64,000 bases of DNA, taken from the NCBI GenBank assembly GCA_038087875.1, contig CM075991.1:496001-560000 (forward strand), in the 5' to 3' direction. The stretch is from Malacoraja senta. Lineage: Eukaryota. Position numbers and translations under genes: made by a program. Below, piece after piece: positions 2,539 to 34,645 of this stretch. The notes below the pieces were generated by a model that saw nothing but the letters and a program-made list of their open reading frames with translations, made no database searches and was not told the origin of the DNA. How positions within the stretch are numbered: the first letter of the stretch is position 1; the number at the start of each line of letters is the position of its first letter.

Positions 2539-2601
2539 CATGCAGACCACCCACAACACCCTCCGCATGGGCCCAGCACAGCTCCCCCAGTGCAGGGGGT
2601 C
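2539..2601 (-). CDS. Possible further exon of the AFAP1-family gene, phase 1-1
   Basis: ctcccctgcag|GA...CAT G|gtgagc; 63 nt and open in frame. No recognisable homology; the acceptor is supplied by the adjacent minisatellite. Confidence 0.3.
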
Positions 2602-2602
2602 C

Positions 2603-3060
2603 TGCAGGGGAGTGATGCAGGGGAGTGATGCAGGGGAGTGGTGCAAGGGAGTGATGCAGGGGAGTGATGCAGGGGAGTGATGCAGGGGAGTGGTGCAAGG
2701 GAGTGATGCAGAGGAGTGATGCAGGGGAGTGATGCAGGGGAGTGGTGCAAGGGAGTGATGCAGGGGAGTGATGCAGGGGAGTGATGCAGGGGAGTGGTGC
2801 AAGGGAGTGATGCAGGGGAGTGATGCAGGGGAGTGATGCAGGGGAGTGGTGCAAGGGAGTGGTGCAAGGGAGTGATGCAGGGGAGTGATGCAGGGGAGTG
2901 ATGCAGGGGAAGGGTGCAGAGCAGTGGTGCAGGGGAGTGATGCAGGACAGTGGTGCAGGGGAAGGGTGCGGTGCAGTGGTGCAGGGGAGTGATGCGGGGG
3001 AAGGGTGCGGGGCAGTGGTGGCAGGGGAGTGGTGCAGGGGAAGGATGCAGGGCAGTGGCA
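2603..3060. repeat. 13-bp minisatellite (GTGATGCAGGGGA)n
   Basis: Direct inspection. Confidence 0.95.
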
Positions 3061-3244
3061 CTGAGGTAAAGGATCATTGAGTGACATGGACCAGTGAGTG
3101 AGCCGTGCGGTGCAGACTTGCATCAATACGGGCACCGTGTGGCACTCACCACACTGGGCACACACTCACCACACTGGGCATACACTCACCACACTGGGGG
3201 TGACCAAACTTCACCATGCCAGCCACACCTCACCGGGCACCTAC

Positions 3245-3433
3245 CTCTGAGTCGGCCGTCTCGGAGCTGGAGGAGAAACAGCGCCAGGCTGTGCCTGCAG
3301 GAGGCACGTTTGAAGGTCTTGCTGAGCGAGAGCAGGTTGAGCTCGGAGCCGGACTTCACCCTCTCCTTGGCACGGAGCACCGCCTGCTCCAGACGACGCA
3401 TCTTCTCCTCCAGACGTGGCAACGTCTTCCGTT
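3245..3433 (-). CDS. AFAP1-family gene, coiled-coil/leucine-zipper exon, phase 1-1
   Basis: gtgtgcag|AA...AGA G|gtaggt; ERKTLPRLEEKMRRLEQAVLRAKERVKSGSELNLLSLSKTFKRA aligns to the AFAP1 LEEKLKQLEE...ELELTEVKESLKKA segment. Confidence 0.75.
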
Positions 3434-4254
3434 CTGCACACACGCACACACGCACACGGTCAGTGGGGCAGGTCATGATCACTGGGTCATGGGTCAGTGT
3501 GGCTGGACCCACTGCTGGGGGATGGGGAGGGGGGATGGTGGAGAGGGAGAGGGGGGAGAGAGGGGGGGGAGGAGGAGGGGAGGAGGGGGAGGGATGTGAG
3601 GGGAGGGGGGAGGGGGATATGAGGGGAGGGGGAGGGGGATGTGAGGGGGAGGGGTGGGAGAGGGGGGTGACTGCGCTGGGACTACAGTTGGGGAGCAGGG
3701 TTGTTGGCCAAGAGTGAGGACTGGAGCAAGGAGTCACAGTAACCGTTGCTGAAGTAAACACACGGGTAAGCAGCAAGTGGAGGGACGGGGGTCACGTGCA
3801 GGCAGAGGAGATCAGTTTAACAGCATCATGTTGGGCATAAGCATTGTGGGCCGAAGGGCCTGCTCCTGTGCTGTACTGTCTTTCTCTTCAGTCCCTCCCT
3901 CCCCCCCACCGCATCCCTCTCCCTCCCCACACTCCCCTACCTTCTTCCCAATCTCCCTCCCCTCTGGACTCTGCCTCTCTATTTACGTTTGTATATCTCC
4001 CTGTTTACAGGCCACTCTTGTTTTTAACTCCTTCAAGTTCTCGCTCCACCTGCCTCTACAATCCCCTTCACCTCGACCCCACCGAGTCACGGACATTCAC
4101 ATCCCTGCCCTCCCTTGGCTCAAGCTGTCTATTCCTCCACTCTGGAACTCCCTCCTTGATCTTCCCCACCTCTGTATCTTTCATTCCTCCTCTGATAAAC
4201 ATCCCTCTTAGACCAAACCTCAGTGCGTCCTCTCTCACACCTTATTTCATCTGG

Positions 4255-4737
4255 TCATAGAGTGATACAATGTGGAAACAGGCCCTCCGGCCCAACTTGC
4301 CCACACCGGGCAACATGTCCCATCTACACTACTCGCACCTGCCTGCGTTTGGCCCATATCCCTCTAAACCTGTCCCATCCATGATCCTGTCCAAATGTTA
4401 CTTAAACTTACAATAGTACCTGCTGCAATGACCTCTGACAGCTTGCTCCATACGCCTACCACTCATTGTGTAACAAAGTTACCCCTCAGGTTCCCATTAA
4501 ATCTTTCCCCCCTCACCTTAAACCTACAGTATATCCTCTGGTTCTCGATTCCCCTACTCTGGGCAGAGACTCTGTGCATCTACCCGTGAATCCTCTCATG
4601 ATTTTATATGCCTCTATAACATCACCCCTAATCCTCCAGCATTACAGTGTTCTAGCCTATCTAAGCTCTCCCTACAGCTCAGGCCCTCGCGTCCTGGCAA
4701 CATCCTCGTCAACCTTCTCCGCACCCTTTCCAGCTTG
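4255..4737 (-). mobile_element. CR1 3' fragment (decayed)
   Basis: KLERVRRRLTRMLPG... and the same 3' UTR as the other copies. Confidence 0.75.
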
Positions 4738-4783
4738 GTGTTAAATGTTGTTTGACGATGTTCGTGGTGAACACCCCACTTAC

Positions 4784-4961
4784 CAGGCAAAGGATCCATC
4801 GCTTCTTTGAAGTCTTTCTTGTCTGTCTGTGTGGATTGGTGTCGGGCAGCTGCCCTTTCAACTTCAGGTGCTTTCCTTTCCAATTCACCCCAAGATGTTA
4901 GAAATCTGGCTTCAGGAAATGCAGTTGGGAAAGTAATACATGAATGGAAGCAGCACACTAG
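4784..4961 (-). CDS. AFAP1-family gene, coiled-coil exon 1, phase 0-1 (acceptor position uncertain)
   Basis: Strong donor CCT G|gtaagt. ...ELERKAPEVERAAARHQSTQTDKKDFKEAMDPLP resembles the AFAP1 coiled coil (...ERKDLRAAIE...). The acceptor catcag at 4962 was chosen for phase compatibility. Confidence 0.6.
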
Positions 4962-5372
4962 CTGATGCTCAGTATCAACGTGCAGAAGAAGTCTGTGGAA
5001 TCCTTTGCCACAGAAGGCTGTGGAGGCCAAGTCAATGGGTAGTTTTTAAGGCAGAGATAGATAGATTCTTGAATAGTACGGGGTGTCAGGGTTATGGGGA
5101 GAAGGCAGGATGGGGAGATAGATCAGCCCATGATTTGAATGGTGGAATAGACCATGGTGGAATTCATGACCTTATGAAGAGGCTTTTGGATAGGCACATG
5201 GATATAGAGGGAATGGAGGGATATGGATCCCGTGCAGACAGATTAGAGCTGGTCCTGACATCATATACGGCACAGACATTGTGGGCCGAAGGGCCTTCTC
5301 CTGTGCTGTACTGTTCTATGTTTTATGGTTGAAAACACTTAACCACTCAAGCAGCAGCTTGTGGTATGTTAT

Positions 5373-5682
5373 TGCGGCACAGTGACGCAGCGGGTAGAGC
5401 TGCTACATCACAGCGCCAGTGTCCCGGGATTGGCCCTGACTACAACTGCTGTCTGTTTGGAGTTTGTACATTCGCCCTGTGTTAACGTGGGTTTCCTCCG
5501 GGTGCCCCGGTTTCCTTCCACATCCCAAAGACGTGCGGGGTTGTAGGTTGATTGGCCCTCTGTCAATTGCCCCTTGTGGATGTGAAAGTGGGATAACATA
5601 GATCTAATGTGAAGGGGTGATGGATGGTCAGCGTGTACTCAGTGGGTCAATGGACCTGTTTCCCTGCTGTATCTCTCTAAAC
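5373..5682 (+). mobile_element. tRNA-derived V-SINE
   Basis: Same head, V domain and tail architecture. Confidence 0.75.
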
Positions 5683-6439
5683 ATTTACAGGACAAGGCAA
5701 GCCCTATTTGCCTGCACGTGATCCATGCCTCTCCATTCATGCGCCTATCTAAAAATCTTGAAATGCTCCTATTTTATGGGCTGAACATGGGCATTTCCAC
5801 AGTGTCTTTTACCTAGAGATGGGGCATCAAAAACCAGACCAGACAACTGTATATAAAGACCACAAAAACCTGTGTGGAATGGGCTGCTAGAGGAGGGTAG
5901 TTGAGGCAGGGACTATAACAGCATGCAAAAGACATTTGAACAGGTAGATGAATGGAAAGGTTTAGAGGGATATGGGCCAAATATGGTACTGGCATAGTTG
6001 GGGCATCTTGGTTGGCTTGGGAAAGTTGGGCCGAAGGGCCTGTTTCCGTGCTGTACAACTCCATGACTATGACTGTAAATGGGGCAACTCTGTTTGCACG
6101 GAGGAGTTGAGCTGCAGGTCCCGTTTCTGCGCTGTATGATTCTATTTCTATCAGCGGACCTTCAGACTATTGGGTGAGTCCCTGCATCAACCTTTACCTT
6201 GGTAACACTTTAGACTTTAGCGATACAGCATGGAAACAGGCCCTTCGGCCCTCTGAGTCCACGCCGACCAACGATCACCCCGTACACTAGCGCTACCCTA
6301 CACACTGGGGACAATTTTCAATTTACAGAAGCCAATTAATCATGTGATCATCTGAGGGTTGGAACCATCTGCATGGTGTTGACCAAGCACTGGTGTCCTG
6401 AACCTCCCTCCCCATGGTCCACGTGAAGGGCGGCATGGT

Positions 6440-6850
6440 GTATAAAGACCACCACTGTATATAAAGACCACCACTGTATATAAAGACCACTGTATATAAT
6501 GACCACCACTGTATATAAAGACCACCACTGTATATAAAGACCACCACTGTATATAAAGACCACTGTATATAAAGACCACCACTGTATATAAAGACCACTG
6601 TATATAATGACCACCACTGTATATAAAGACCACTGTATATAAAGACCACCACTGTATATAAAGACCACCACTGTATATAAAGACCACCACTGTATATAAA
6701 GACCACCACTGTACATAAAGACCACTGTATATAAAGACCACCACTGTATATACAGACCACTGTATATAAAGACCACCACTGTATATAAAGACCACCACTA
6801 TATAAAGACCACCACTATATAAAGACCACCACTGTATATAATGACCACCA
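6440..6850. repeat. 16/19-bp minisatellite (GACCACCACTGTATATAAA)n
   Basis: Direct inspection. Confidence 0.95.
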
Positions 6851-7835
6851 TGGGACAGGTCACAGTTGGCCCCAGCTGGATCATCGATTGATCACCGGTT
6901 CACACTAGTTCCATGTTTTCCCACTTTCTCATCCACTCCCTACACACCAGGGGGCAATTTACAGAGGGCTAGTCAATCTACAAACCCACACATCTTTGGG
7001 ATGTGGGAGGAAACCAGAGCAGCCGGAGGAAACCCACGCGATCACAGGGAGAACGTGCAAACTCCACACAGACAGCAGCCGAGGTCAGGATTGAACCGGG
7101 ATCTGGCGCAGTCTTGCAGACCCAGTCCATCCCTGCGTGTCCCTGGAGAGGGAGGACGTGGTGTCCACGGGGACTCTGGGGGTCTTCCGAGAACGCTGGT
7201 CACTGCGGGGACGATGTGGATGATGGTTCAGTTCAGTTTAGTTTAGAGAAACAGCAGGGAAACAGGTCCTTCCCTCCTCCCCCCGCGCCCCCCCCCCCCC
7301 CCCCCCCCCCCCCCGAGTTTGCACCGACCAGCAATCCCACACACTAACACTATCCTACACACACTAGGGACAATTTACACAAACACCAAGCCAATTTACC
7401 TACAATCCTGTACCATATAACCATTACAGCACGGAAACAGGCCATCTCGGCCCTTCAAGTCCGTATTGAACACTTCCCCCCCCCCCCCCTTCTTTCTTCC
7501 CCCTAGTCCCATCGACCTGTACGTCTTTGGCGTGTGGGAGGAAACCGAAAATCTCGGAGAAAGCCCAAGGGAGAAGGTAGAAACTCGGTACAGGCAGCAA
7601 CCTGTAGTCGGGATCGAACCCGGGTCTCTGGCGCTGCAGCTCTGCAACGCAGCAATTCCACGTGTACCGAGCTACAGTAAAAAGCTTTTGTAGTTGTAGT
7701 TTGATGCTTGATGTTTGCAAACTGTGCAAGCAGTTTTGATTTACGCAGTACTTTGTAACTGTGATTATGCAATAAAAGCTTCTTGTTATGGAGAATAAAG
7801 AGGGGTAAAAGTGGCGGGTGCCTGGATTGACTTAC

Positions 7836-7950
7836 CACTGGGCAGGGTGTTGTACCTCCCCCTTGGCTGCTATTGGTGCGCTGGTCATTCTCTGCCAATC
7901 TGATGCCTTTCTCTGTCTCCCAGCGGCTGGTTGGGCAGAGCCAGCCTCTG
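7836..7950 (-). CDS. AFAP1-family gene, internal exon, phase 2-0
   Basis: tttgcttgcag|C...GTG|gtaagt; 115 nt open in the required frame (RGWLCPTSRWETEKGIRLAENDQRTNSSQGGGTTPCPV). Unique sequence between repeats. Confidence 0.6.
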
Positions 7951-9823
7951 CTGCAAGCAAATGATAGATAACGTCACTCAGTGAGGGTGGGGGAGCTTGC
8001 AGGAAATATGGACGCAGAGGGTGGGCATGCTAGCTCCTGGGAGTACAATAGGATGAGGGGTGATCGTATAGAAGATAGACGCAAAAAGCTGGAGTAACTC
8101 AGCGGGAAAGGCAGGATCACCCTTCTTCTGACGCCCTGACTCGAAACGTCACCCATTCTTTCTCTCCAGAGATGCTGCCTGTCCCGCTGAGTTACTCCAG
8201 CTCTTTGTGTCTATCTTCGGTTTCAACCGGCATCTGCAGTTCCTTCCTACACACAGTGATCTTATAGAGGTGTCGTTTACCCAGAGTAGGGGAATCCAAA
8301 ATCAGAGGTTTAAGGTGGGAGGGAAAAGATTTAATAGGAACCTGAGGGACAACTTTTTCACACAGAATTGCATTGGCTACATGGAACGAGCTGCCAAAGG
8401 AGGTAGTTGAGGCAGGTACTACAACAACAGTCAAGACACACTTGGACAGGTACTTGGATAGGAACGTTTTTACAAGGAAATAGGCCAAACACGGGCAGGT
8501 AGGGACTAGCGTTGATGGTCAGCATGGGCAAGTCGGGCTGAAGGGCCTGGGTCCATGCTGCCTGACTCTATGACGATCTACTGTGATACAGTGATTGGCC
8601 CTTTGTAACTCTGCTGCACCATTACACTGGCTGGGATTCTGCTTCTCAATAGCAGGACAAAGGTTAGACATTGATGCAGCAGCAGTGACAATGTACAGCC
8701 CTGACTGCCCACTGCAGGTGACAGGGACAATGTACAGCCATGACTGCCCACTGCTGGTGACAGGGACACTGCTGGCGTGGGTGCTCATGGCATCTTGCCC
8801 TGAGAAAGGGAATGGCATCGATGGCTTCCTGGTTCACCAGGTGATGGGTCCATGGGATCATTGTGGCACTGACACACCTCTCTGAATGCAGGCCAGACCA
8901 TCACACAAACCAACATCCCTTCCACTGACTCCATCTACACGTCACGCTGCCTTGGCAAGGCCAGCAGCATCATCAAGGACGAGTCACATCCTGGTCACTC
9001 CCTCTTCTCCCCTTTACCATGCACTAAACGTTATTCCCTTATCATGTATCTGTACACTGTAAACAGATCGATTGTAATCACGTATTGTCTTTCTGCTGAC
9101 TGGTTAGCACGCAACAAAAGCCTTTCACAGTACCCCGTTACACATGGCAATAAACTAAACTAAACTCAAGCCCCAAACACCCTTCCTGACAGAACATGTC
9201 GGGTATCTCACAGACCAATGGCAGGAACATTGAAACCTCCAGATTTAGATGGCACACCACCACCACCACCACCCCCCCCCCCCCCCATGACCTCTCCTGT
9301 GCCCCACCCTTGTACGTGCCTATCTTTCCCACTATCCTGTCCCCCTCACCTCGCCCCTCCCCTTTCCAAACGTATCCTTCTGGCTTTACACCTTTCTCTC
9401 TTCCTCCTTACACAGTATCTCCTTTTCATCTCCAGCCTTTATCCACCCATCTGACAAATACCCCCCCCCCCCACCTGCATCCACCTATCACTCGCCAAGC
9501 TTTGTCCCTCTTTGTCTAGCTTTAACTCTGCTATAACGAGTCTAATCTAACGTCACCTCTCTATGTTCTCCAGACCTGCTGCCTGACACCAGCTCTGTGT
9601 TCTAGTAGACCAGCATGCGTGTTCTTCAGTAAACCAACACGCGTGTTCATGCATCTCCATGCTCATATGTTCATAAGTTCTAGGTACAGAATTAGGCCAT
9701 TCGGCCCATCAAGTCTACTCCGCCATCTAATCATGGCTGCTCTGCCTTTCCCTCTCAACCCCATTATCATGCCTTCTGCCCATAACCCCTGACACCCAAA
9801 CTAATCAAGAACCTGCCAATCTC

Positions 9824-10023
9824 NNNNNNNNNNNNNNNNNNNNNNNNNNNNNNNNNNNNNNNNNNNNNNNNNNNNNNNNNNNNNNNNNNNNNNNNNNNNN
9901 NNNNNNNNNNNNNNNNNNNNNNNNNNNNNNNNNNNNNNNNNNNNNNNNNNNNNNNNNNNNNNNNNNNNNNNNNNNNNNNNNNNNNNNNNNNNNNNNNNNN
10001 NNNNNNNNNNNNNNNNNNNNNNN
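9824..10023. other. Assembly gap (200 N)
   Basis: N run. Confidence 1.
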
Positions 10024-10124
10024 CCTGCAGCTTTATCCTATCTACACCCTAAATGATTATCCGTACCTCAATCATATTTGCTCTTAACTTCCTCCACTCC
10101 AGAGAACAGACTCAGCCCCTCCTA

Positions 10125-10570
10125 GAGTCATAGTGTGGAAACAGGCCCTTCGGCCCAACTTGCCCACTCCGGCCAACATGTCCCAGCTACACGTCCCACC
10201 TGCCCGCGTTTGGTCTATGTCCCTCCAAACCCGTCCTATCCATGTACCTATCTAACTGTTTCTTAAACGTTGGGATAGTCCCAGCCTCAACTACCTCCTC
10301 TGGCAGCTTGTTCCATCCACCCACCACCCTTTGTGTGAAAAAGTTACCCCTCAGATTCCTACTAAATCTTTTCTCCTTCACCTTAAACCTATGTCCTCTG
10401 GTCCTCGATTCCCCTACTCTGGGCAAGAGATTCTGTGCGTCTACCCGATCTATTTCTCTCATGATTTTATACACCTCTATAAGATCACCCCTCATCCTCA
10501 TGTGATCCAAGGAATAGAGACCCAGCCTACTCAACCTCTCCCTGTAGCTCACACCCTCTAGTCCTGGCAA
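10125..10570 (-). mobile_element. CR1 3' fragment
   Basis: LPGLEGVSYRERLSRLGLYSL...FFTQRVVGGWNKLP. Confidence 0.85.
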
Positions 10571-10669
10571 TGGTGGATCTGTGTCTCTGTGCTGCAGTGG
10601 GGGCTGCGGTGGTGAGATGAATGAATGCGATGGTGGAACGGTGACGGTGGCGAGTGGTGGACTGCAATG

Positions 10670-10945
10670 GTGTAGCTGCAGCAGTGGGGTTACAGCAGTG
10701 GGGCTGCGGTGGTGGTGCTGCAGGAGTGGGGTTACAGCAGTGGGGCTGCAGTGGTGGTGCTGCAGTGGTGGGGTTACAGCGGTGGGGCTGCAGCGGTGAA
10801 GCTGCGGTGGTGGACCTGCAGCAGCGGTGGGGTTGCAGCGGTGGTGCTGCAGCAGTGGGGTTACAGCAGTGGGGCTGCGGTGGTGGACCTGCAGCAGCGG
10901 TGGGGTTGCAGCGGTGGTGCTGCATTGGTGGGGTTGCATTGGTGG
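10670..10945. repeat. Degenerate GCAGCAGTGGGG minisatellite
   Basis: Direct inspection. Confidence 0.85.
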
Positions 10946-10955
10946 GCTGCCTGAC

Positions 10956-11101
10956 CTGACGGGTCCATTGCCGGCACCATTCCGCGCTCCGGTTGCAAGG
11001 GACGTGTCTTCGTAGGCGTGGTCCGGGTCTGGGTCTACATCAGCTCCGCCCGCTGCCGAGAGCAGCCGCAGCCAGCGTCCCCTCTCCTCCGGCGAGACAG
11101 C
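10956..11101 (-). CDS. AFAP1-family gene, PH2 C-terminal helix exon, phase 0-2
   Basis: cccacag|GCT...GTC AG|gtcagg; 146 nt, AVSPEERGRWLRLL...DPDPDHAYED. This is the PH terminal helix (A.S.EE.GRW..LL) plus the DP...Y motif seen in AFAP1/AFAP1L2. Confidence 0.85.
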
Positions 11102-11704
11102 CTGTGGGTGGGGACAGGCGGCCCTGTGACCTCGTCCAGAACACACACCCCAAATCCAGCCCCCCACCGACACTCCCCCTAAACTCCCACCCATCTACCT
11201 CTCCTGCCAGGCTCATCTACCCCTAAACCCCCCCAGTCCATCTTCCCCCCTGGACCCTTCCCCCAGCCACCTCCCCCTCCCCCCTCCACCCCCGTCCCTT
11301 CCCTTCTCCCCCTAAACCCCCCCAGTCCATCTCTCATCTCCCTTGGCTCGTCTCCCCCCTACCCACCCCCCTCCTCTATAAGGGAGTCCTCCCACTACAT
11401 TGGGGAGCTCAGGTGGGTGAGGAGGGGGGGGGGAGGGAAGAGGGTGGGTGGGGAGGGAAGGAGGGGGGGATCTCCCTGTCGGTTTGTTCCTGGGCCTGAC
11501 CAAGATGGCCATTCGTGGGTCGAGGCAGCGGGCAGCCGAGGGTTCTGCCCGTCACCCACCTGCCCCTCTTCTGTGCCCACATCCGTGCTCGCATTTCCCT
11601 GGAGAGGGAACACATGGTGACCATAGGGTCTCTGGAGGCCCTCCGTGAACACCAGTGTCATTGTGGTGTTGAATCGTCAGCTGCTGGCAACGACTCTAAA
11701 CCAG

Positions 11705-12130
11705 GTGGCAAGAAATTACAGAGAAATGATAAAGAAACCATTGAATTGTGAACACAGCCCAGGCCATCACACAAACCAACCTCCCTCCTATTGACTCCGT
11801 TGATACATCACGCTGCCTCGGCAAGGCCAGCAGCATAATCAAGGACGAGACGCACCCCGGCCACTCCCTCTTCTCCCCTCTCCCATCGGGCAAAAAGTAC
11901 AGAAGTGTGAAAACACACTCCTCCAGATTCAGAGACAGTTTCTTCCCAGCTGTCATCAGGCAACTGAACCATCCCACCACAACCAGTGAGCATTGCTGAA
12001 CTACTAAAGTATCTACGTCATTGGAGACCCTTTTTGATCAAACCTTACCAGTTTTATCTTTCACCAAACGCTGTTCACGTTGTTCCCTTATCATGTATCT
12101 ATACACTGTGAATGGCTCGATTGTAATCAC
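11705..12130 (+). mobile_element. Rex1/Babar-like LINE 3' fragment
   Basis: AITQTNLPPIDS...HPGHSLFSPLPSGKKYRS...FRDSFFP. Confidence 0.75.
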
Positions 12131-12352
12131 AGTACAGCCGTGTTACACGCAGTACACATCCGTGTTACACTGTACACATCCGTGTTACACTGTACACATC
12201 CGTGTTACACTGTACACATCCGTGTTACACACAGTACACATCCGTGTTACACTGTACACATCCGTGTTACACTGTACACATCCGTGTTACACTGTACACA
12301 GCCGTGTTACACTGTACACATCCGTGTTACACGCAGTACACATCCGTGTTGT
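12130..12352. repeat. 20-bp minisatellite (CGTGTTACACTGTACACATC)n
   Basis: Direct inspection. Confidence 0.95.
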
Positions 12353-12483
12353 ACATGCCCCCCTCTCTGTGTGTCGCATGGTATTTGTGTCTGGACATTG
12401 GGTGGTCCAGCACGTGTGAACGGCCCCCTCCCCGTCCCACCCCCTGTGAGGGGAGTGAGTCTCGGGAGACCATATGGTCTGTT

Positions 12484-13410: not shown

Positions 13411-13449
13411 CTCTCTCTCGCATGCCCTCTACAGTGGGGGGGTCCTTAC

Positions 13450-13646
13450 CTGCAGCAGTGCCAGCTCCCTGTCCTGACGGGCGATGCTCAGGCTGCATGT
13501 GTGTGCCCGCAGCGTGCAGCCTCGCAGGTCGATGGAGTGTTGCAGCGCGCCGCTGCCTCTGGGTCCCCCGTACATCAGCAGCAGCGGCCCGTCGAGCCGG
13601 CACCACACCATCTGCCAGCAACCCCTCACCAGAACCCGCAGCGAGC
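13450..13646 (-). CDS. AFAP1-family gene, PH2 domain exon, phase 1-0
   Basis: ctctgccctgcag|GC...CAG|gtaagg; GSLRVLVRGCWQMVWCRLDGPLLLMYGG...IDLRGCTL...ELALLQ matches the AFAP-type PH2 start pattern (G.L.VLV...W...WC) and the L.GC motif. Confidence 0.85.
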
Positions 13647-14072
13647 CTGCAGGGCAGAGGCAGCAACGTGGAACACACTCCCCGCAGTGAGAGGGGACAC
13701 ACACGGTCACAGGGGCAACGTGCAAACTCCACATAGGCAGCGAGCCTGCAGGGCAGAGGCAGCAACGTGGAACACACTCCCCGCAGTGAGAGGGGACACA
13801 CACGGTCACAGGGGCAACGTGCAAACTCCACATAGGCAGCGAGCCTGCAGAGCAGAGGCAGCAACGTGGAACACACTCCCCGCAGTGAGAGGGGACACAC
13901 ACGGTCACAGGGGCAACGTGCAAACTCCACATAGGCAGCGAGCCTGCAGAGCAGAGGCAGCAACGTGGAACACACTCCCCGCAGTGAGAGGGGACACACA
14001 CGGTCACAGGGGCAACGTGCAAACTCCACATAGGCAGCGAGCCTGCAGAGCAGAGGCAGCAACGTGGAACAC
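13638..14072. repeat. 99-bp tandem repeat (about 4.4 units) containing the PH2-exon splice acceptor
   Basis: gcgagcctgcag recurs at 13641, 13740, 13839, 13938 and 14037. Confidence 0.95.
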
Positions 14073-14487
14073 AGCCTGGTTGGTCAGTTAAGGGGGAGAC
14101 ACACACGTGTGGGATGTGGGGGGAAACCGGGGCACCCGGCGAAAACCCCACCCGTTCACGGGGAGAATGTATAAACTCCACACAGACAGCAGCCGAGGTG
14201 AAGATGGAACCCGGGTCCCTGGTGCTGCGAGGCAGCAGCTCTACCCGCTGCGCCACTGTGCCGCCCACAAGATGGTGCCACCACAGTTCTAGGATGCCAC
14301 TGATCTCAGCTTTGTTTTGTGCTGAGGATGGGATAGTGGAAAGAGGTGTCATGTTGAGAACTGCAGCATCGCTAGGCCACCCCGTCACCACCATGTCTGT
14401 GCAGCTGAGGCAGGATGGTCCTGGGTCTGTTGCTGCCCCCCCCCCCCCGCTGACATCAGAACATCTCCTCACCCGGTGCTCTGAGCA

Positions 14488-15066: not shown

Positions 15067-15169
15067 GGTGCTCTGAACACTGTGTGTCTCCATAGCTCAG
15101 ACGTGCGTTAACTAACACAGGAGATAGAGTTGTGCCCACCCCCACGCCCCTCCCCCAGTATGAGATCTC

Positions 15170-19758: not shown

Positions 19759-21876
<2,118 letters not shown>

Positions 21877-21889
21877 GGCACGGACTCAC

Positions 21890-21977
21890 CTGCACTGTGG
21901 GTGTGTGAGCTCCGTGACACGACCATCTCCCCCAGGGGCCGGTGTGACTCCAGGCTCCGTGTAGCCCTCAGTGCCAC
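21890..21977 (-). CDS. AFAP1-family gene, internal exon, phase 0-1
   Basis: cttcactgcag|GTG...GCA G|gtgagt; 88 nt, VALRATRSLESHRPLGEMVVSRSSHTHSA(G). Phases fit both neighbouring exons. Confidence 0.65.
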
Positions 21978-25205: not shown

Positions 25206-26483
25206 TGCAGGGATAGGGGATTACTTTATCTTGGCATCATGTACGGCACAGATACTGTGGGCCGAAGGGCCTGTTCCTGTGCTGTACTGTTCCATGTTTT
25301 ATCCCATAAATTCCACACTGCCCTGTATATTGGGAGCAACCTGCAGCAGCCAAATAGCCCACCGCCTAGGGGAACCCCCCTGGTCACAGGGAGAGCGAGC
25401 AGACGCCACACAGACAGTACCCATGGTCAGGATCAAATCGGGTGGTTGGAGGGAGAGGGACGAGGACCGGGCAGGTGGGACTCCCACTAGGCAACGTGGC
25501 TAGCATGAACAAGTAGGGCCAAAAGGCCTGTTTCCATACTGTATGATGTCTCTATGTGTGTATAAAGGCCCTGTCCCACTTATGTGTCCTCGGCACGCAA
25601 ATTACGTGACCTTGTTGTTGCGTTGAGGCGCACGGGCATCGTGTGGGGCCGGTCCCACTGAGAAGGGTATGTAGTTGTGCGCAGTATCGCGCGGTGCTCC
25701 GGAATTTTGTACCGAATGAAATCTTCGCACGCCAACGGCCTGTCGTGGAACTGACGGCCAAAGTGGGACAGGCCCAAGACCCTTGTGCGACGCAACGTCT
25801 CACCTCCAGCAGCAGCAGAAGCAGGCAAACGATCGCCGAGCTCGGCCTGGGGCTCACGGCCGTTGCGGTCCGGATCCGCCCCCACTCCTACTCCCAGAGC
25901 GGGGTCAGGTGAGGAGCTGTTCTGCTGGCGGGGAGGATTTGATGAACTTTTCGGAAGGTTTTGTTTGGCGGGGAGAAACAAAAGCAGTCAGACTTTGCAG
26001 TTCAGAGCTTTGTCGATCTGCTGAGACTTTCTTTGTTCAAGGATTCCTCTAATTAGGGAGGATTTGTCCGTGTATCTGTAAAGTCGTAGGAGCGGCAGTG
26101 GCTGGCGGAAGGCCAAGTTACACTTGAACTAGTGGGAGCTGAGACTGGAGCGGTGTTTGTGTTCAGTAACATCGGAAAGCTCCCTCCTACACCGACTTGC
26201 CCGGTCCAGGTGGGCTGGGTAAGAACAGCAACAGTGCCTTGGATTCCGTTGAAGCCGGGGAGGCGCCGGAGACCTGGGGAAGAAGCCTCCGGAAGCTCCA
26301 TTTTTGACGACAGGGAGGATTGGCACGGACATTCCTATCAGGAGGAGACTGCTTCTGTTGCTTGCCAAGAAAGCCTTCACAAAACTATTTAACTGCTGCA
26401 AAAGAGTGGAGGTGCAGCAACAGCAGAAAGACTGCTTTGATTATAAAGTACTGGTACTTTGTGTGTTGTGCCACGCCCTAAAG

Positions 26484-28589
26484 ATGGCAGCCCCTCAGAG
26501 TTATGCAGCTGTCGCACGGTCGGCAGACTCCGAGACTGAGGGCCACGAGTTGATGGGGCGCACATATGGTGTAAAAATGTACATGCAGAGCAACCTGCCC
26601 TTAAAGGCCTTACTAGATGCGTTGGGTGAGACTGTTGGCAAGAAAGCCATAGTCTCGGGCGCGGTGGTCAGTGGGAAGGTTGTGGTTCTACTAAAGACTG
26701 AACAGGCGGTGGCTCTGGCTCTGGAAAGGGGGGTAACAGCAGGCGGGGATTTTTGCGGCGGTGGACCCATGGGGGGGTCCTGTTTTGCCGGTCATTCTGT
26801 CCAACGTTCCCACTTTTGTTCCGGATGCGCTCCTGCTCCTACATGTAAGGAAGCTGGGGGAGGTGCGGTCAGGGCTCACCAAACTGTTGTACAGGTTTGA
26901 CGATCCTGAGATGCAGCATATATATACGTTCAAGCGTCGCGTGTATATACAGTTGGCACAGGGGACGGACACGGAGGGGAGTTTTGAGGTGGAGGTGGAT
27001 GATTTCTCCTATTGCGTGTTCTGGAATGCGGGCCAAGTGCGTTGTCACGCTTGCAAAAAGGTGGGGCATTTTCGCAAGAATTGTCCCAGGACCCGGGCTG
27101 CCAGTTCCACCACGATGGCACGGGAAAGCACTACTGGCCCATCTGGGGCTGCTGGTTTTACCATGGTGGCCCGTGAAGGCTTTACTCCCCTACCCCCAAC
27201 CCCTATCCCCCCACCACCCCCATGTCCCGTACCTGTGACGGTGGATGCCGGAGAAGTGCGTAGGGTGGATGGGAAGGTTTGGGAGCATCAGAAGGGGAGG
27301 AAAGTCAAGAAAAAGAAGAAACATCTCCAGGCGGGTCCCCTAGAAGATGATCACCTCCAAGCGGGACCCCAGGCAGCAGATAATTTCATGCTCGCCTCTG
27401 AGATAGACGGTAGTGTGGAGGTAGAGGCTTCTGCAATGGAGCTCACCGTACCACCGTACGCCAGTGGTTCGAAGAGGAGGAGGCATGGGTCCTCCGATAC
27501 AGAGAAGGGCCCTGAAGTTCAGGGGCAACCTGAAGGGGAGCCTTCCCCTCGTGTTGAGGTGGGGTACCCAGGGCACGTTTCCTCTGAGGGGGAGGATGCC
27601 TCTGTAGGTCTGGGACCACCTGAGAGTGGAGATATATTGCTCTTGGGGGCTGTCCCCCAGAAAACACGTCTGCTAGCTTAGTGGGTGACCAGGGGCAGCC
27701 TGAAGGGGGGGACTTGGGTGAGGGGGTGGGTCCCCAGCATGAGCTCCCCGTTGAGGCTACAAGCCCAGTTGAGGGGTGTGAAGGCCCACTGGTTGAGGGA
27801 GCAGGGGAGACTCCAGTAACATCGGCCCCTGAGGGTCACTGTGAGGTGATTCACCTGGTGGTGGGGGACGGGGACTCTCTGGGTGACGGTGCATGGGCGG
27901 ATACCCTGGGTGCGGAGGAGGGCAAGATCGTTTTGGATCGTGTCCTTAGGTCGGACTCCAGACAGACCCGCTTACAGCAAGGCCCGGAGACTTGCTCTGA
28001 CTTCACTGTTCCCAATCCGGTTACAGAGGGTGATGAGAGCGTGCAGGAGACGGGCCAATTGTCAGATAGCTTGCCGCGGTCAGAGGCACTGGTACCTGCC
28101 CCTGTCACTGATCCTGGGGGTGGGATGGTGACAGAGGAGGGACTGTGTGATGTGGCTGGAATGCCCACCTCACAGGGAGGGGTGAGCGAGGCGGCTGAGG
28201 GTAGTAACTTTCCGGACTCGGGCTCGGACATTGAGTGCGAGGGGGAGGAGGGGTACCCGGAGTCCGTTGACAGTGAGTTGACGGACTGCTCCACCCGCGG
28301 CCCCATGTCTCGACTTGTCGAAGTCTGGGAACTTCGGAAGTTCTTAAAGGACACTAGAGGGAGTAGGAACAAGGTGGATTTGGCTGTCGACCGCTGGTCG
28401 GACCTGATGGCGCCCATGCAGTCTATTCATGCCATCCTTCAGAAGAAGGGGAATGAGGCGGGACTAGTAAGAAATGAGAGGCGCCAGTTCCAAGAGCTTT
28501 TTAAGGTCCTAAAGAGAGGGCAGAAGGGTTGGGGCGGCTCCAATCCATCACCGGGGACGGGTAAAAGATCTAGTGTACTTTCAAAATGA
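26484..28589 (+). pseudogene. Tx1 ORF1 (CCHC zinc knuckle), disrupted
   Basis: ATG at 26484 (MAAPQSYAAV...), frameshift near 26750, in-frame stop near 27680. Confidence 0.75.
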
Positions 28590-31500
28590 AGCTCACTATA
28601 GCCAGCCTGAATATCAATGGGGGCAGGGGGTCTCTCCGTAGGTTTCACCATCTCTCAGTGCTCAGGGACGGGAGGTATGCGGTGAGCTTCCTGCAGGAAA
28701 CACACACTGTGGCTAGTGATGAACCCACCTGGCTCCTGGAGTGGGAAGGGGGGGTCTACATGAGTCATCTCAGCTCCAAATCGAGTGGAGTAGCCTTCCT
28801 GTTGGCCCCGTCTTTCAAGCTGGAGATCCTCAAAGTGCAGGAGGTTGTACCAGGCCGTTTGCTGTATCTGGCCGTGCGCTTGGATGGCGTGCCGTTACAC
28901 TTCGTTAATGTGTACGCCCCCAAGATCGGCGCAATGCAGACGCGCTTAACAAGGGAAGTGACCACGTTGTTGAATACTATCGACCGTGGGGAGTGTGTGT
29001 TCCTTGGGGGAGATTTTAATTGTGCCCTCGAGACAAGAGATCGCTCTGGCGTTCAGCGTGACCCGGGAGCAGTAAAGACTTTGAGGGAGATGGTGGACTC
29101 TTTTGAGCTGGTAGACGCTTGGCGGAATTTCCATCCTGACTCTAACGCCTTCTCGTACAGGTTTGAGGGTGGTGGTTCCCGTATTGATCATTTATGTCTC
29201 TGTCTCCTGTGTTTCGGTGGCCTCCATGTGGCCGGCGCCATGCTCGCGAGTGGATTTTATCCCGACACGCACACGGGCTGGGTCCGCGTACTGGCATTTT
29301 AATAGCCAGCTGTTGGAGGATCGCCGATTTCGGGATTCATTCAGGCAGTTCTGGGCGAGGTGGAGAGAGAGGCAGGGGCGTTTCCTTTCCCTAAGGCAGT
29401 GGTGGGACGTGGGGAAGGTCTACGTCCGTCAGTTTTGCCAGGACTATGCGAGGGGGTCGACCAAGGGGCGGGAATCCGAGATCGGACGGCTTGAGAGAGA
29501 GTTGCTCGACTTGGAGGCTCGTGTGGATCAGACTGGTGGGGCTTCGTGTGAGTGGGAGGAATACCAGGAGAAGAAGGGAGCACTGAGGGACTTGCAGCTT
29601 AGGAGGTCCCGGGGTGCGTATGTGAGGTCGCGGGTCCAGATGTTGCACGACCTGGACCGCGCCTCCCCCTTTTTCTTTTCTCTGGAGAATGGGCGAGGAG
29701 CACGCAGGCAGCTTGTAGAGTTGCTTGCGGATGATGGCTCCTCTGTCACAGATCCAGAGAGCATTGGTGCCTCAGTTCGGTCGTTCTACAGGACTCTGTT
29801 CTCGGCTGGCACATCGAGTGGGGAGGCGCAAGAAGTCCTGTGGGAGGGCTTACCCGCTGTGTGCAATGATGTGGCTGAACAACTGGATGATCCCCTAACT
29901 CTGGAGGAGTTGACTGTTGCCCTGCACCAGCTTAGGAGGGGCAAGTCTCCAGGGCTGGATGGGCTGACTGTGGAGTACCTTAGAGCCTTCTGGGATGTCC
30001 TGGGGGGGCGACTATATGAAGGTCCTGGGGGAGAGCCTGGCGACCGGGGAGATGCCTTTCTCTTGGCGCAGGGCAGTTGTTGTCCTGCTGCCCAAGAAGG
30101 GCGATCTTCGCCTTTTGAAGAACTGGCGCCCGGTCTCTCTCCTCAGCACGGACTACAAAGTCTTTGCACGGGCATTGGCGAATCGCCTGGGTCCCATGCT
30201 GTCCCAGGTGATCCACCCTGACCAGTCGTACACAGTCCCGGGCCGGTCCATCCAGGACAATATCCATCTGCTCCGGGACCTGATCCATCTGTCCCAGGGG
30301 GCTGGTCAGTCGGTCGCCTTTCTCTCCCTCGACCAGGAGAAGGCGTTTGACAGGGTGGAGCACGACTACCTTCTTGGGACTCTGCAGGCGTTCGGATTTG
30401 GACCGCATTTTGTGGCCTGGGTCCGACTTTTATATACTGCTGCAGAATGCCTTGTTAAGGTCAACGGCTCTTTGTTGGCCCCCATTCCCTTTGGGAGGGG
30501 GGTTCATCAGGGATGTCCCATGTCCGGCCAGCTGTATTCCATCTGTGTCGAGCCTTTCCTGTGCCTTCTCCGGAGGCGGTTGACAGGCCTGGCTTTACCG
30601 GGGCCGGGGATGGAGGTGGTTCTCTCGGCCTACGCCGATGATGTCCTTCTGATGTTCACCGACCCTGTTGACCTGTGGAGGATGCGTGAGTGCCAGCAGG
30701 TTTTCTCGGCTGCATCCTCCGCCAGGATCAACTGGGGAAGTGTTCTGGTCTCTTGGTGGGTGGGTGGCAGGTGGGCTCCCTGCCGGAGGAGATGGCAGGT
30801 TTTGCGTGGAGTACCACGCACCTCCTCTATCTGGGGGTCTACCTGAGTCCCGCTGAGGAGGGGTGGCCGGCGAACTGGCAGGAGCTGGAGGCGAAAGTGG
30901 TCGCCCGGCTGGGACGTTGGTCCGGCCTACTTGGTGTGCTCTCTTACCGGGGCAGGGCTGTAGTTATAAACCAGCTGGTGGCCTCTCTGCTGTGGTACCG
31001 GATGGCCACTATGGTCCCATCCTCTTATTTTATAACCATGTTACAGAGGAGATTGGTCAACTTCTTCTGGGGTGAGAGGAACCACTGGGTCTCTGCTGGG
31101 GTTCTGAGTCTCCCGTTGGAGGAGGGTGGTCAGGCGCTGGTCTGTATTCGTACCCAGGTGGCGGCTCTCCGACTCAGGACCCTGCGGAGGTACGTCTACT
31201 CGGACTACCCTCCTAAATGGCACGTGCTGGCGACGTACTTTTTCCGTCAGGGGCGGTGCCTTCAGGAGGGCTCACGGCTCCCGGTAGCGGGCATGAGTCG
31301 ACGCGCTAGGCGGGAGTTGCCTGGCTTTTACCGTGAACTCCTGAAGGCCAGGAATTTGGTCACCTTCAGCCAGGGCCCTGCTCCTCAGGGGGAGGGGGGG
31401 TCGTGGCTGGGACGGTGGGTGTCGAGGAGAGGCGTGTACATGGAGCGATTCCGGACGAGCTTACCCCCGCTCAGTCGGAATTGTTCATAGGGCCCATGGC

Positions 31501-31987
31501 CCGGGACCCTCCCCGAGAGCCGGCCCCATGCAACATGAGCCGCCTTTCTAAGATGCCCAGTGTGCCATTCCGTGGCGCGGAGAGGCGTGTACTGTACAGG
31601 CTGCTCTTGCACACTCTCCACTTCCTCGCCCTCGTCTTCCGTCCAGACACACCCTGGCGGTCCGTGTTACCACCTGACGAGGGGAGCGGTCCCCAGTGGA
31701 GGTCTCTCTACAAGGGAGTCCTCCCCCTTTACATCGGGGACCTGGGGTGGAGAGTTTTGCACAAAGCCGTGGCCTGTAATAGGTACTTGAGCCGGTTCAC
31801 GGACTCTTCCCCTGCTTGTCATTTCTGCGGTGAGGCCCTTTGGCCCATCCGGGGTTACATCCGTGCCCGCGTGTCCCTAGAGAGGGAACACGCGGTGTCC
31901 ACGGGGACTGTGGAGGCCTTCTGTGAACGCTGGTCACCGCAGGAGGTTGAATATATTATAGATAAAAATGTTAATATTTTAATTTGA
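28586..31987 (+). pseudogene. Tx1 ORF2 (endonuclease + reverse transcriptase), several frameshifts
   Basis: Pieces in ORFs 28586-29302, 29163-30221, 29995-30846, 30690-31490 and 31403-31987; the ATG overlaps the ORF1 stop (ATGA). Confidence 0.85.
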
Positions 31988-32122
31988 TAATTGTGTTTAA
32001 GTGTTTTTTAAATTGTGTGAGCTTTCTACCCTCCCTTGTACATTGTACATTTGTTTAAAAATCTAATAAAAAAAAACATTTACGGAAAAAAAAAAAAAGA
32101 AAGAAAAGAGCGGGGCCAAGAA

Positions 32123-32324
32123 ATTTGAAGATAGACACAAAATGCTGGAGTAACTCAGCGGGACCGGCAGCATCTCTGGAGAGAAGCAATGGGTGACGTT
32201 TCGGGTCAAGACCCTTCTTTCAGACTGAAGAAGGGCCTCGACACAAAACATCATCCATTCCTTCTCTCCAGAGTTGCTGCCGGTCCCGCTGAGTTACTCC
32301 AACATTTTGTGTCTATCTTCAAAT
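32123..32324. repeat. About 200-bp palindrome of two inverted Penelope pLTR halves
   Basis: atttgaagatagacacaaaatgctggagtaactcagcgggaccggcagc... is the reverse complement of the right half; centre ttcagactgaa. Confidence 0.85.
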
Positions 32325-32724
32325 GACGTCACGCGCTCCAGACGGCCGTGCGGGCGCATGATGACCCGTGCGACCTTCGCGGGACCGTCGCGCCTCAACG
32401 CGACCACGAGGTGGTGTAATTAGCGAGCCAAGGACACGTAAGTGGGACAGGGGCTTAACTCTACAATGACCCCCTTGATTACTCGATTACCTGTCACCAT
32501 CTCCTTGAGTTTGGGGAAATGGAACAAAGCTCAAGGTGGGAAAATGAAACACTCGAGGGCACAGCTTTAAGGTGAGAGAGGAGATGTACACAGAGGGTGA
32601 TGAGTGCCTGGACATACCGCTCTGCCAGAGGGAAGGAATACAGGTGGAAGCGGGAGGTGGAAGCGGAAGCGGTGGGGAGCTGTGGTGCAAGTCCAGGTGG
32701 GGGACAGGGAGAAGTGGCAGTAGA

Positions 32725-33035
32725 GGGAGATACAGCATGGAAACGGGCCCTTTGGTCCATCGAGTCCATGCTGACAATTCACACACCAGCTCTATGTTAT
32801 CCCACTTCCTCATCCACTCCCACACACACCAGGGGGCAATATACCAAGAGTCAATTAACCCACAAACCCGCAGGTAATTGGGATGTGGGAGGAAACCGGA
32901 GCACCAGGAGGAAACCTACGTGGTCACAGGGAGAACGGACAAACTCCACACAGACGGCAGCCGAGGTCAGGAATGAACCCGGGTCTCTGGCACAGTGAAG
33001 CAGCGGATCTACCCGCTGTGCCACCATGCTGCCCG
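32725..33035 (-). mobile_element. tRNA-derived V-SINE
   Basis: Same architecture. Further partial copies lie at about 2365-2530, 6890-7110, 7230-7650, 14105-14265, 56470-56600 and 59800-60240. Confidence 0.75.
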
Positions 33036-33079
33036 TGTAGTTAGACGTTGCCGCACCTTGCGGCAGCTGCCGATTGAGT

Positions 33080-33757
33080 TAGAGTCCGACAGTGATACAG
33101 TGTAGAAACAGGCCCTTCGGCCCAACGTGCCCACACAGGCCAACATGTCCCAGCTACACTAGTCCCACTTGCCCGCGTTTGGCCCATATCTCTCCCAATC
33201 CATGTACCTGTCTAACTGTTTATTAAACGTTGGGATAGACCCAGCCTCAACTACCTCCTCTGGCAGCTTGTTCCATACACCCACCATCCTTTGTGTATAA
33301 AAGATACGCCTCAGATTCCTATTAAATCTTTTCCCCTTCACCTTGAACCTGTGGCCTCTGGTCCTCGATTCTCTACTCCGGTCGAGAGATTCTGCATCTA
33401 CCAGATCTATTCCTCTCATGATTTTGTACACCTCTGTAAGATCACCCTTTATCCTTCTGCACTCCATGGAATAGAGACCCAGCCTCCACAACCTCTCCCT
33501 GTAGCTCACACCCTCTAGTCCTGGCAACATCCTCGTAAATCTTCTCTGAACCCTTTCAAGCTTGACAATAGCTTTCCTATAACACGGTGCCCAGAACTGT
33601 ACACAATATTTTAAATGCGGTCTCACCAACATCTTATACAACTGCAACATGACCCCCCAACTTCTATACTCAATACTCTGATTGATGAAGGCCAATGTGA
33701 CAAAAGCCTTTTTCACCGCCTTATCTACCTGCGACTCCACCTTCAGGGAACCATGCA
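33080..33757 (-). mobile_element. CR1 3' fragment
   Basis: ORF 33159-33830: VRPHLKYCVQFW...WNKLP. Confidence 0.85.
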
Positions 33758-34549
33758 CCTGCTGGTTGTTTTGTTCGAGGAGACGGGAGGCAGAGGTTGA
33801 GGTATCTCGGTGGCACGGGGGGACCTCCACCCGTGGGTCCAGACCCTGGCGCCATGTGTGCGCAGCGTTGTCCAGAGTTGCCCGCTGTAACCAGGGTCAC
33901 CACCCTGGGGTCTGGCATGGGGAGGTCCCTGATGTTGGAGTGGCCACCACGCCCAGTGGCAACAGTGTATCGGTCACACAACCCCCCCCCCCCATTGCCA
34001 TCTACCCCCAGGGGTAACAGTGTCCCAGTCACACAAACCCTCCCACCTCCCCATGTACCCACCCCCACTGACCACATGACCCCTCATCATTGCACTGTGC
34101 CTACCCCTGTACACTCCCGGTCACACGATCGTGGAATACTTTGCCACTAAGGGCTGCGGAGGCCGTCAGTGGATATATTTAAGGCAGAGCGACAGATTCT
34201 TGATTAGTAACGGGTGCCAGGGGTTATGGGGAGAAGGCATGAGAATGGGGTTCGCAGGGAGAGATAGATAGCATCGATTGAATAGCGGAGTAGACTTGAT
34301 GGGTCGAATGGCCTAATTGTGGTCCTGTCACTTATGACCTTATGATCAAACCCCCACCCCTCTCTGTGTGCACCCCACCTGGCCACACCCCCACCCACCC
34401 CCCTTGTGCCTCCCCTCCCCAGTGGTTACACACCCGCATCCTACCCCCACCCCTGTGAGCCCAGCCCCCCCCCTACCGTGTGCCCCCCACTGTTACCAGT
34501 GACACCACACATCACACCCCCAGCCTGGGTGGGCCGCGGGGACACATAC

Positions 34550-34645
34550 CTTGTTGCGGGCAGGTCCCGTGCCTTTGCTCGTTGCCGATGGGCAGTGCCA
34601 GGGTGTGGATCTGTAGTGTCCGCAGCTGCTCACATCCTCAATAAC
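34550..34645 (-). CDS. AFAP1-family gene, internal exon (post-PH1 linker), phase 0-0
   Basis: gtacag|GTT...AAG|gtatgt; 96 nt, VIEDVSSCGHYRSTPWHCPSATSKGTGPARNK. Resembles the AFAP1 exon starting VIKE immediately after PH1. Confidence 0.7.

What the first reader, a model, noticed from the sequence alone, without database searches (positions are those of the whole stretch)
2539..34645. Divergent AFAP1-family gene: candidate fourth ohnolog
Seen: 7-8 short exons hidden among repeats splice with compatible phases (0-0, 0-1, 1-0, 0-2, 2-0, 0-1, 1-1) into a protein with a PH domain and a coiled coil. One acceptor (4962) was chosen to fit phase. Established: this order and these motifs match AFAP1, AFAP1L1 and AFAP1L2 (XB130), of which mammals have three. 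Inference: the sequence departs strongly from all three as I recall them (for example DHAYED instead of YDY.D), more than expected of a slow-evolving chondrichthyan ortholog. It may be a fourth whole-genome-duplication paralog lost in mammals.
Basis: partly seen in the sequence, partly recalled or inferred. Interest (0 to 1): 0.75.

Follow-up and report, generated by a model that had tools for sequence, protein, structure and literature searches.

The report
Overlooked fourth AFAP1-family gene in skate
This DNA, likely from a skate, holds seven exons of a fourth member of the AFAP1 adaptor-protein gene family that sharks, fishes, amphibians, turtles and birds also carry under misleading database names; it likely dates from the early vertebrate genome duplications, and this copy has three frame-breaking indels that may be decay or assembly errors.

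Summary
They encode the second PH domain and C-terminal part of an AFAP1-family adaptor, 91% identical to a thorny-skate protein. Trees place it in a fourth clade (100/100) with sharks, rays, coelacanth, bowfin, teleosts, amphibians, a turtle and birds, sister to AFAP1L2. AU tests reject membership of AFAP1, AFAP1L1 or AFAP1L2. An LGI gene lies next to it, and the topology matches the published (8,10)(4,5) paralogon, so a fourth genome-duplication copy is likely. It is not unknown to databases: it is the si:dkey-220o5.5 group, mostly named 'AFAP1-like 1/2'. No paper describing it as a fourth paralog turned up in 9 searches, and the scan had not noted it before. Loss in mammals fits (0 mammals among the named hits) but is not shown. 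Whether these are decay or assembly errors is open; there is no read evidence.

The parts
34550..34645 (-). Exon A, 96 nt, phase 0-0: last helix of PH1 and start of the PH1-PH2 linker
   Evidence: tblastn to sawfish P0002 res 281-313, 52% id; HMM piece iE 6e-7; AG/GT
21890..21977 (-). Exon B, 88 nt, phase 0-1: linker; holds an in-frame ATG at 21926
   Evidence: P0002 res 316-342, 68% id; HMM iE 2.5e-6; AG/GT
13450..13646 (-). Exon C, 197 nt, phase 1-0: strands of the second PH domain
   Evidence: 97% to Amblyraja P0001; Pfam PH E 0.014; best PDB sequence and fold match 2COF
10956..11101 (-). Exon D, 146 nt, phase 0-2: PH2 C-terminal helix and the HAYED tyrosine motif
   Evidence: 88% to P0001 res 76-126; AG/GT
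9824..10023 (.). 200-N assembly gap in the intron where the conserved 'NAYMDDPF' exon (P0001 res about 129-174) must lie; that exon is not in the window
   Evidence: gap; no hit for the exon
7836..7950 (-). Exon E, 115 nt, homologous phase 0-1; +1 base in the A run 7910-7908 and -1 base at the G run 7862-7858; first in-frame stop at 7887-7885
   Evidence: frame switch against P0001; positions; stop after 21 codons
4784..4909 (-).
   Evidence: 89% to P0001 res 212-256; junction agrees with skate, sawfish and stingray proteins
3245..3433 (-). Exon G, 189 nt (188 expected): shortened coiled-coil helix and the GSELNL motif; +1 base in the T run 3278-3276
   Evidence: 96% to P0001 res 257-309, then frame switch for res 309-320; helix in model
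35368..35567 (.). 200-N assembly gap 0.7 kb upstream of exon A; the N-terminal and PH1 exons are not in the window and may lie in it
   Evidence: gap; no N-terminal or PH1 hit on either strand
56265..56443 (+). First coding exon of an LGI-family gene (signal peptide and LRR N-cap), head to head with the AFAP-family gene; synteny marker
   Evidence: human LGI1 structures E 2e-6; GT donor at 56444; which LGI paralog was not tested

Best explanation
The window holds the 3' half of a fourth AFAP1-family gene, the sister of AFAP1L2 (XB130), which likely arose in the second vertebrate whole-genome duplication and is predicted to encode a tyrosine-phosphorylated, membrane-binding signalling adaptor. 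Shown: the exons, the clade, the LGI neighbour, the motif pattern. Inferred mechanism: the full-length form (650-730 aa in sharks, rays, bowfin-type fishes, axolotl, turtle, birds) would dock on membranes by an AFAP1L2-type PH1, be phosphorylated by Src-family kinases on conserved tyrosines (YEExxP, SSxYESY, NxYMDDP) and recruit SH2 proteins, as XB130 does. It lacks the proline SH3-binding motif, the basic linker and the first half of the coiled coil, so it would likely be a weaker Src activator and self-associate less than its paralogs. In skates the retained half evolves about five times faster than in the sawfish. The three indels in this copy are, with slightly better than even odds, assembly errors.
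For: Fourth clade 100 SH-aLRT (41 rows, 621 columns) and 100/100 (31 rows, 567 columns), with an inner branching that follows the species tree. AU test rejects placing the cartilaginous-fish set with AFAP1L2 (delta lnL 198, p 6e-5), AFAP1L1 (302, p 1e-3) or AFAP1 (294, p 2e-5). Birds and teleosts carry both this clade and true AFAP1L2; the peregrine falcon has it on a 6.3 Mb contig and AFAP1 on a 127 Mb contig. Split (fourth + L2) against (AFAP1, L1, lampreys) 98.7/100, which matches the (Hsa8,Hsa10),(Hsa4,Hsa5) topology of PMC2453138 and the chr10/chr8 sister paralogons of PMC2446394. LGI neighbour; in Narcine the model is fused to an FHIP2 gene. 32 of 34 bird hits with a contig length lie on contigs under 10 Mb, as expected for a microchromosome. 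Motif counts in 54 fourth-type against 11 other proteins. XB130 anatomy from PMC4666142.
Against: No shark or ray AFAP1, L1 or L2 and no invertebrate outgroup are in the trees; the stem branch is long (0.86-0.93), and the careful mixture-model search did not finish. Constrained trees used a fast search. The LGI and FHIP2 paralogs were not identified; NCBI names the Narcine partner 'FHIP2A-like', and FHIP2A is the neighbour of AFAP1L2 in human (recalled). The human map positions of these genes are recalled, not fetched. Function is inferred from motifs only. The window copy does not encode an intact frame as assembled.
Confidence: 0.85

Rival explanations
1. Same fourth paralog, but this copy is a real young pseudogene: the skate lineage relaxed the gene, possibly lost its PH1 half, and this species fixed three frameshifts. 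(Compatible with the best explanation on origin; differs on status.)
For: Three single-base indels and a one-codon deletion in about 960 coding bases. Skate lineage accelerated: 68 against 12 unique changes relative to the sawfish in 311 columns, p 4e-10. All 4 NCBI models from two other skates lack PH1. A 99-bp tandem repeat in the same region shows 0% indels over 436 bases, so the assembly is not grossly noisy there.
Against: The window copy has no excess of amino-acid changes over intact skate copies (7 against 6, p 0.78; 8 against 9, p 0.81). All three indels lie in short single-base runs. All seven exons keep AG/GT sites, and exon A stays open although it lies upstream of the ATG that the skate models use. 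Both missing internal parts coincide with assembly gaps.
Confidence: 0.4
2. It is the fast-evolving skate ortholog of AFAP1L2 or AFAP1L1, as the database names say.
For: NCBI names the closest proteins 'AFAP1-like 1' or '-like 2'. It shares the L2-type PH1 and NxY[MI]D motifs. Best solved match is the AFAP1L2 PH2 domain (2COF, KIAA1914; the alias is recalled). Canonical shark or skate paralogs were not retrieved.
Against: AU rejection. The same clade holds bird, turtle, amphibian and teleost genes whose lineages also have true AFAP1L2 and L1. The names switch between 'like 1' and 'like 2' within one clade and even within one gene's isoforms (Gadus).
Confidence: 0.03
3. A fourth paralog from a local or segmental duplication of AFAP1L2 before the shark-bony fish split, not from whole-genome duplication.
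For: The tree alone dates the duplication only to before the jawed-vertebrate split. The neighbours' paralog identity is untested, and the Narcine partner is named FHIP2A-like.
Against: Two neighbour families (LGI, FHIP2) are duplicated in the same paralogon (LGI: PMC2453138; FHIP2 recalled); the pairwise topology matches the published pattern; bird copies sit on small contigs.
Confidence: 0.1
4. The reader's chain is a real, skate-specific re-spliced product (exon skipped, acceptor 4962, new last exon).
For: The chain is open for 357 codons with canonical sites.
Against: It needs a non-homologous acceptor with 10 of 20 pyrimidines, non-homologous frames in exon E, loss of the NxYMD exon kept in 52 of 54 relatives and of the KEWE end kept in 47 of 54. 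The sites were chosen to fit phase.
Confidence: 0.03

Closest known systems
si:dkey-220o5.5 group (zebrafish gene name; UniProt H3BBM5 of coelacanth; NCBI 'AFAP1-like 1/2' models such as XP_032869775.1)
   Same: Same clade: the coelacanth protein named Si:dkey-220o5.5 groups with the window gene at 100/100. The name appears only in expression tables of 2 papers, glossed as AFAP1L2.
   Different: The window copy lacks the N-terminal half and one internal exon as assembled, and carries three indels. The zebrafish protein itself was not retrieved.
AFAP1L2 / XB130
   Same: Sister clade (98.7/100); two PH domains, N-terminal tyrosine motifs, L2-type PH1 motif, NxY[MI]D motif, KEWE end; PH2 fold match 2COF.
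   Different: About 32% identity to the sevengill shark member. No YDYVD, no GKxRxE coiled-coil start, no proline SH3-binding motif; has its own GSExNL and RRTAS motifs.
AFAP1 (AFAP-110) and AFAP1L1
   Same: Family architecture, exon C-D layout of PH2, N-terminal helix and tyrosine motifs, KEWE end.
   Different: 30-32% identity; LLRKKRF PH1 motif and KITxI basic linker absent in 54 of 54 fourth-type proteins; AU test rejects membership.

Membership tests
AFAP1 family | Two PH domains | tested here: inconclusive
   Met in full-length orthologs (Pfam PH, 2 stretches). Only PH2 and the end of PH1 are in the window; the PH1 exons may lie in the gap.
AFAP1 family | N-terminal tyrosine (SH2-binding) motifs YEExxP and SSxYESY | tested here: met
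   49 of 54 and 52 of 54 full-length members of the clade; these exons are not in the window.
AFAP1 family | C-terminal coiled coil and KEWE end | tested here: inconclusive
   KEWE end in 47 of 54; the first half of the coil (GKxRxE) in 1 of 54; one 22-residue helix modelled.
AFAP1 family | Homology by sequence and fold to a named member | tested here: met
   Sawfish ortholog to 2COF E 1.7e-12; skate model to 2COF rank 1, E 8.7e-7; canonical members found by phmmer.
AFAP1 family | Src binding, tyrosine phosphorylation, lipid or actin association | not testable with these tools
   Needs cell or biochemical assays.
AFAP1L2 (XB130) orthologs | Nests inside the AFAP1L2 clade | tested here: not met
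   AU p 5.7e-5, delta lnL 198.
AFAP1L2 (XB130) orthologs | Proline SH3-binding motif, YDYVD and full coiled coil | tested here: not met
   0, 0 and 1 of 54 (patterns written after seeing the alignment).
AFAP1 or AFAP1L1 orthologs | Nests inside either clade | tested here: not met
   AU p 2.3e-5 and 1.3e-3.
si:dkey-220o5.5 (fourth) clade | Groups with the coelacanth, fish and tetrapod members; GSExNL motif | tested here: met
   100/100; motif in exon G and in 49 of 54 members, 0 of 11 others.
2R ohnolog of the chromosome 4/5/8/10 paralogon | Duplication older than the shark-bony fish split | tested here: met
   Clade holds both lineages and excludes bony-vertebrate AFAP1L2.
2R ohnolog of the chromosome 4/5/8/10 paralogon | Lies on the fourth paralogous chromosome among its marker genes | tested here: inconclusive
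   LGI and FHIP2 family neighbours found; their paralog identity and the chromosome were not determined.
2R ohnolog of the chromosome 4/5/8/10 paralogon | The three other copies exist elsewhere in the same genome | not testable with these tools
   No genome is held for this window.

The most novel reading that the evidence does not exclude
An undescribed fourth AFAP ohnolog ('AFAP1L3') that vertebrate lineages are dismantling independently and from different ends: gone in mammals, without PH2 in caecilians, without PH1 and evolving five times faster in skates, and freshly frameshifted in this species, so that the loss of a 450-million-year-old duplicate is caught in the act.
Probability: 0.25. 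Interest if true: 0.62.

Novelty: new member of a known kind. Interest (0 to 1): 0.45.

Why it matters
The AFAP family is treated as having three members. A fourth completes a 2R quartet and adds a marker for the eroded fourth chromosome of the 4/5/8/10 paralogon. In fish, bird and shark annotations it is labelled AFAP1L1 or AFAP1L2, so expression tables can assign its signal to the wrong gene (two papers gloss it as AFAP1L2). It is also a natural deletion variant of XB130 (no SH3-binding motif, half a coiled coil) that can be tested in zebrafish or chicken. Retained fourth ohnologs lost in mammals are a familiar pattern, so the surprise is moderate.

Tried and rejected
Own genome: none held, so the three canonical paralogs were not sought there. 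Sequencing runs: 24 listed, best share 0.35, no RNA holder listed; no reads were laid, so junctions and indels have no read test. A profile search meant to fetch shark AFAP1, L1 and L2 listed only the best 120 of 2659 hits, nearly all mammalian AFAP1 and no cartilaginous fish by name. N-terminal, PH1, NAYMDD, C-terminal and FHIP2 exons: no hit in six frames of the window (best HMM piece iE 0.13 or weaker; tblastn E 0.065 or weaker), while the short linker exons A and B were found at iE under 3e-6. The careful mixture-model tree did not finish in two runs; a smaller LG+F+G4 run with bootstrap was used. Exon E looks more diverged between its two indels, but 4 changes in 17 codons is not significant (p 0.055). 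Papers: no description of a fourth AFAP paralog; PMC2453138 and PMC2446394 do not mention AFAP in the main text, nor do the 5 supplementary files of the former except as chance letters in an alignment. The AFAP1L1 discovery paper is not held. Earlier scan notes: nothing on this gene.
Full report
Observation. The gene lies on the minus strand among LINE, SINE and simple repeats. Searching with exon C returned one protein, an Amblyraja radiata model named 'AFAP1-like 1', 364 aa, 97% identical; its cluster holds three Leucoraja models. The window is therefore likely from another skate: 91% identity to Amblyraja over 264 columns, 87% to Leucoraja over 268. Comparing these and full-length shark and ray proteins with the window confirms seven exons: A 34645-34550, B 21977-21890, C 13646-13450, D 11101-10956, E 7950-7836, F 4909-4784, G 3433-3245.

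The homologous acceptor of exon F gives a start at 4909, not 4962. The last exon near 2601-2539 matches nothing in the relatives, and the conserved C-terminal exons are not in the window; they probably lie beyond base 1. An exon with the NAYMDDPF motif, kept in 52 of 54 full-length relatives, is missing between D and E, where a 200-N gap lies (9824-10023). Three single-base indels break the frame relative to Amblyraja: +1 and -1 in exon E and +1 in exon G, each in a short single-base run. Read at homologous sites, E-F-G stops after 21 codons.

What it is. A search for longer relatives of the Amblyraja protein gave 51 proteins: 12 from sharks and rays (11 species, 56-62% identity), 37 from birds, one axolotl, one turtle; none from a mammal. 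A full HMMER scan gave 46 representatives; of the 43 new ones, best-match sorting put 27 with this group, 7 with AFAP1L2, 6 with AFAP1 (two are lampreys) and 3 with AFAP1L1. I named 20 of them. The 9 named members of this group are coelacanth (UniProt name Si:dkey-220o5.5), bowfin, three teleosts, two caecilians, a hummingbird and chicken; 18 stayed unnamed, so absence from mammals is suggested, not shown. No frog, lizard or chimaera member was seen among the named rows either.

Tree. I aligned the window pieces with 40 chosen proteins (24 of this group, 5 AFAP1, 3 L1, 6 L2, 2 lamprey; labels set beforehand; three rows trimmed of duplicated or foreign parts). The quick mixture-model tree gives four clades with 99-100 SH-aLRT; the window sits with the two skates, inside rays, inside cartilaginous fishes, and the fourth clade follows the species tree. 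The careful search did not finish. With 10 long or redundant rows dropped, LG+F+G4 gives the fourth clade 100/100 and the split (fourth + AFAP1L2) against (AFAP1, AFAP1L1, lampreys) 98.7/100. Forcing the cartilaginous-fish set into AFAP1L2, AFAP1L1 or AFAP1 costs 198, 302 and 294 log units and is rejected by the AU test (p 5.7e-5, 1.3e-3, 2.3e-5; fast constrained searches). Limits: no shark AFAP1, L1 or L2 (one search returned none among the 120 rows listed), no invertebrate root, and a long stem. The argument does not need the shark copies: birds and teleosts have both this clade and true AFAP1L2, so the duplication is older than the shark-bony fish split.

Neighbourhood. At 56265-56443 on the plus strand lies the first exon of an LGI-family gene (LGI1 structures, E 2e-6). 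In Narcine the NCBI model runs from this gene into an FHIP2-family gene. From recall, LGI1 and FHIP2A lie on human 10q with AFAP1L2, and LGI3 and FHIP2B lie together on 8p21; I did not determine which paralogs these neighbours are. PMC2453138 (passages read) describes the paralogon of human chromosomes 4, 5, 8 and 10, lists LGI among its families and reports (8,10),(4,5) as the commonest topology; PMC2446394 (passages read) finds the same pairing and places the fourth region on chicken chromosome 22. The AFAP tree has this shape, and 32 of 34 bird hits with a contig length lie on contigs under 10 Mb. A fourth 2R copy is the best reading (0.85).

How it likely works. PMC4666142 (passages read) describes XB130 as a scaffold with N-terminal SH2- and SH3-binding motifs, two PH domains and a coiled coil. 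In 54 full-length fourth-type proteins (bird-heavy; patterns written after seeing the alignment) against 11 others: YEExxP 49 and 8; SSxYESY 52 and 11; L2-type PH1 motif 52 and 3 (the three L2); NxY[MIT]D 52 and 4; KEWE end 47 and 11. Absent are the proline SH3-binding motif (0 and 8), YDYVD (0 and 9), the basic KITxI linker (0 and 7) and GKxRxE (1 and 9); specific is GSExNL (49 and 0). The skate protein is modelled as a PH domain (residues 10-93, pLDDT about 95), one helix (262-283) and otherwise low-confidence chain; its top fold match is the AFAP1L2 PH2 structure 2COF. I infer a largely disordered, membrane-recruited phosphotyrosine adaptor that works like XB130 but with less SH3-driven Src activation and less self-assembly. 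None of this is tested.

Is this copy alive? For decay: three frameshifts; a skate lineage about five times faster than the sawfish (68 against 12 unique changes in 311 columns, p 4e-10; 57 against 16 for a stingray); all 4 models from two other skates lack PH1; no PH1 exon in the 21.6 kb up to the LGI gene. For assembly error: no excess of amino-acid change over the intact skate copies (7 against 6, p 0.78), indels only in single-base runs, intact splice sites, an open exon A, and both missing parts at assembly gaps. I put error at about 0.55-0.6 and real pseudogene at about 0.4. No read evidence was obtained.

Novelty. The clade exists in databases as si:dkey-220o5.5 and as models named AFAP1-like 1 or 2. 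That name occurs in 2 papers, each once in a table row glossed as AFAP1L2 (one passage each read). Nine searches of the held library (listings only) showed no paper that describes a fourth AFAP paralog; subscription journals, gene-tree and ohnolog databases and supplements other than those of PMC2453138 were not seen and may list it. The scan's notes hold nothing on this gene. Verdict: a real, apparently undescribed fourth member of a known family, of moderate interest (0.45).

Noticed in passing
window 13638-14073: A 99-bp tandem repeat (4.4 copies, 99% identical) copies the acceptor of exon C and its first bases several times upstream. Two Leucoraja models (P0053, P0054) start inside the matching repeat, so it is shared between skates and may offer decoy acceptors.
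   Followed up: partly
window 56265-56443 (+): First coding exon of an LGI-family gene, intact frame and GT donor; later exons were not looked for with an LGI query.
   Followed up: partly
P0012, P0013 (Narcine bancroftii): NCBI models fuse the C-terminal half of this gene to an FHIP2-family gene; read-through or annotation merge, and a synteny clue.
   Followed up: partly
P0070, P0080 (caecilians): The models of Rhinatrema and Geotrypetes keep PH1 but lack all or most of PH2 (sequences), the mirror image of the skate models.
   Followed up: no
P0053, P0054, P0055 (Leucoraja erinacea): Three near-identical models, one on a 15.6 Mb contig and two on contigs of 76 and 83 kb: unplaced haplotypes or local duplicates.
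   Followed up: no
window about 26500-31550 (+), in the A-B intron: A long broken non-LTR retroelement with a zinc-knuckle ORF1 piece and a reverse-transcriptase piece (translations); L1/Tx1 type by recall, not tested.
   Followed up: no
window about 40350-42200 (+) and about 52800-53750 (+): Broken pieces that look like a DNA-transposon transposase and an LTR-retrotransposon gag/protease (by eye and recall only).
   Followed up: no
window 4922-4909: Several sharks have four more residues at the E-F junction than skates, sawfish and stingray; the window has TG where the upstream acceptor AG would be, so rays and skates appear to have shifted the acceptor by 12 bases.
   Followed up: partly
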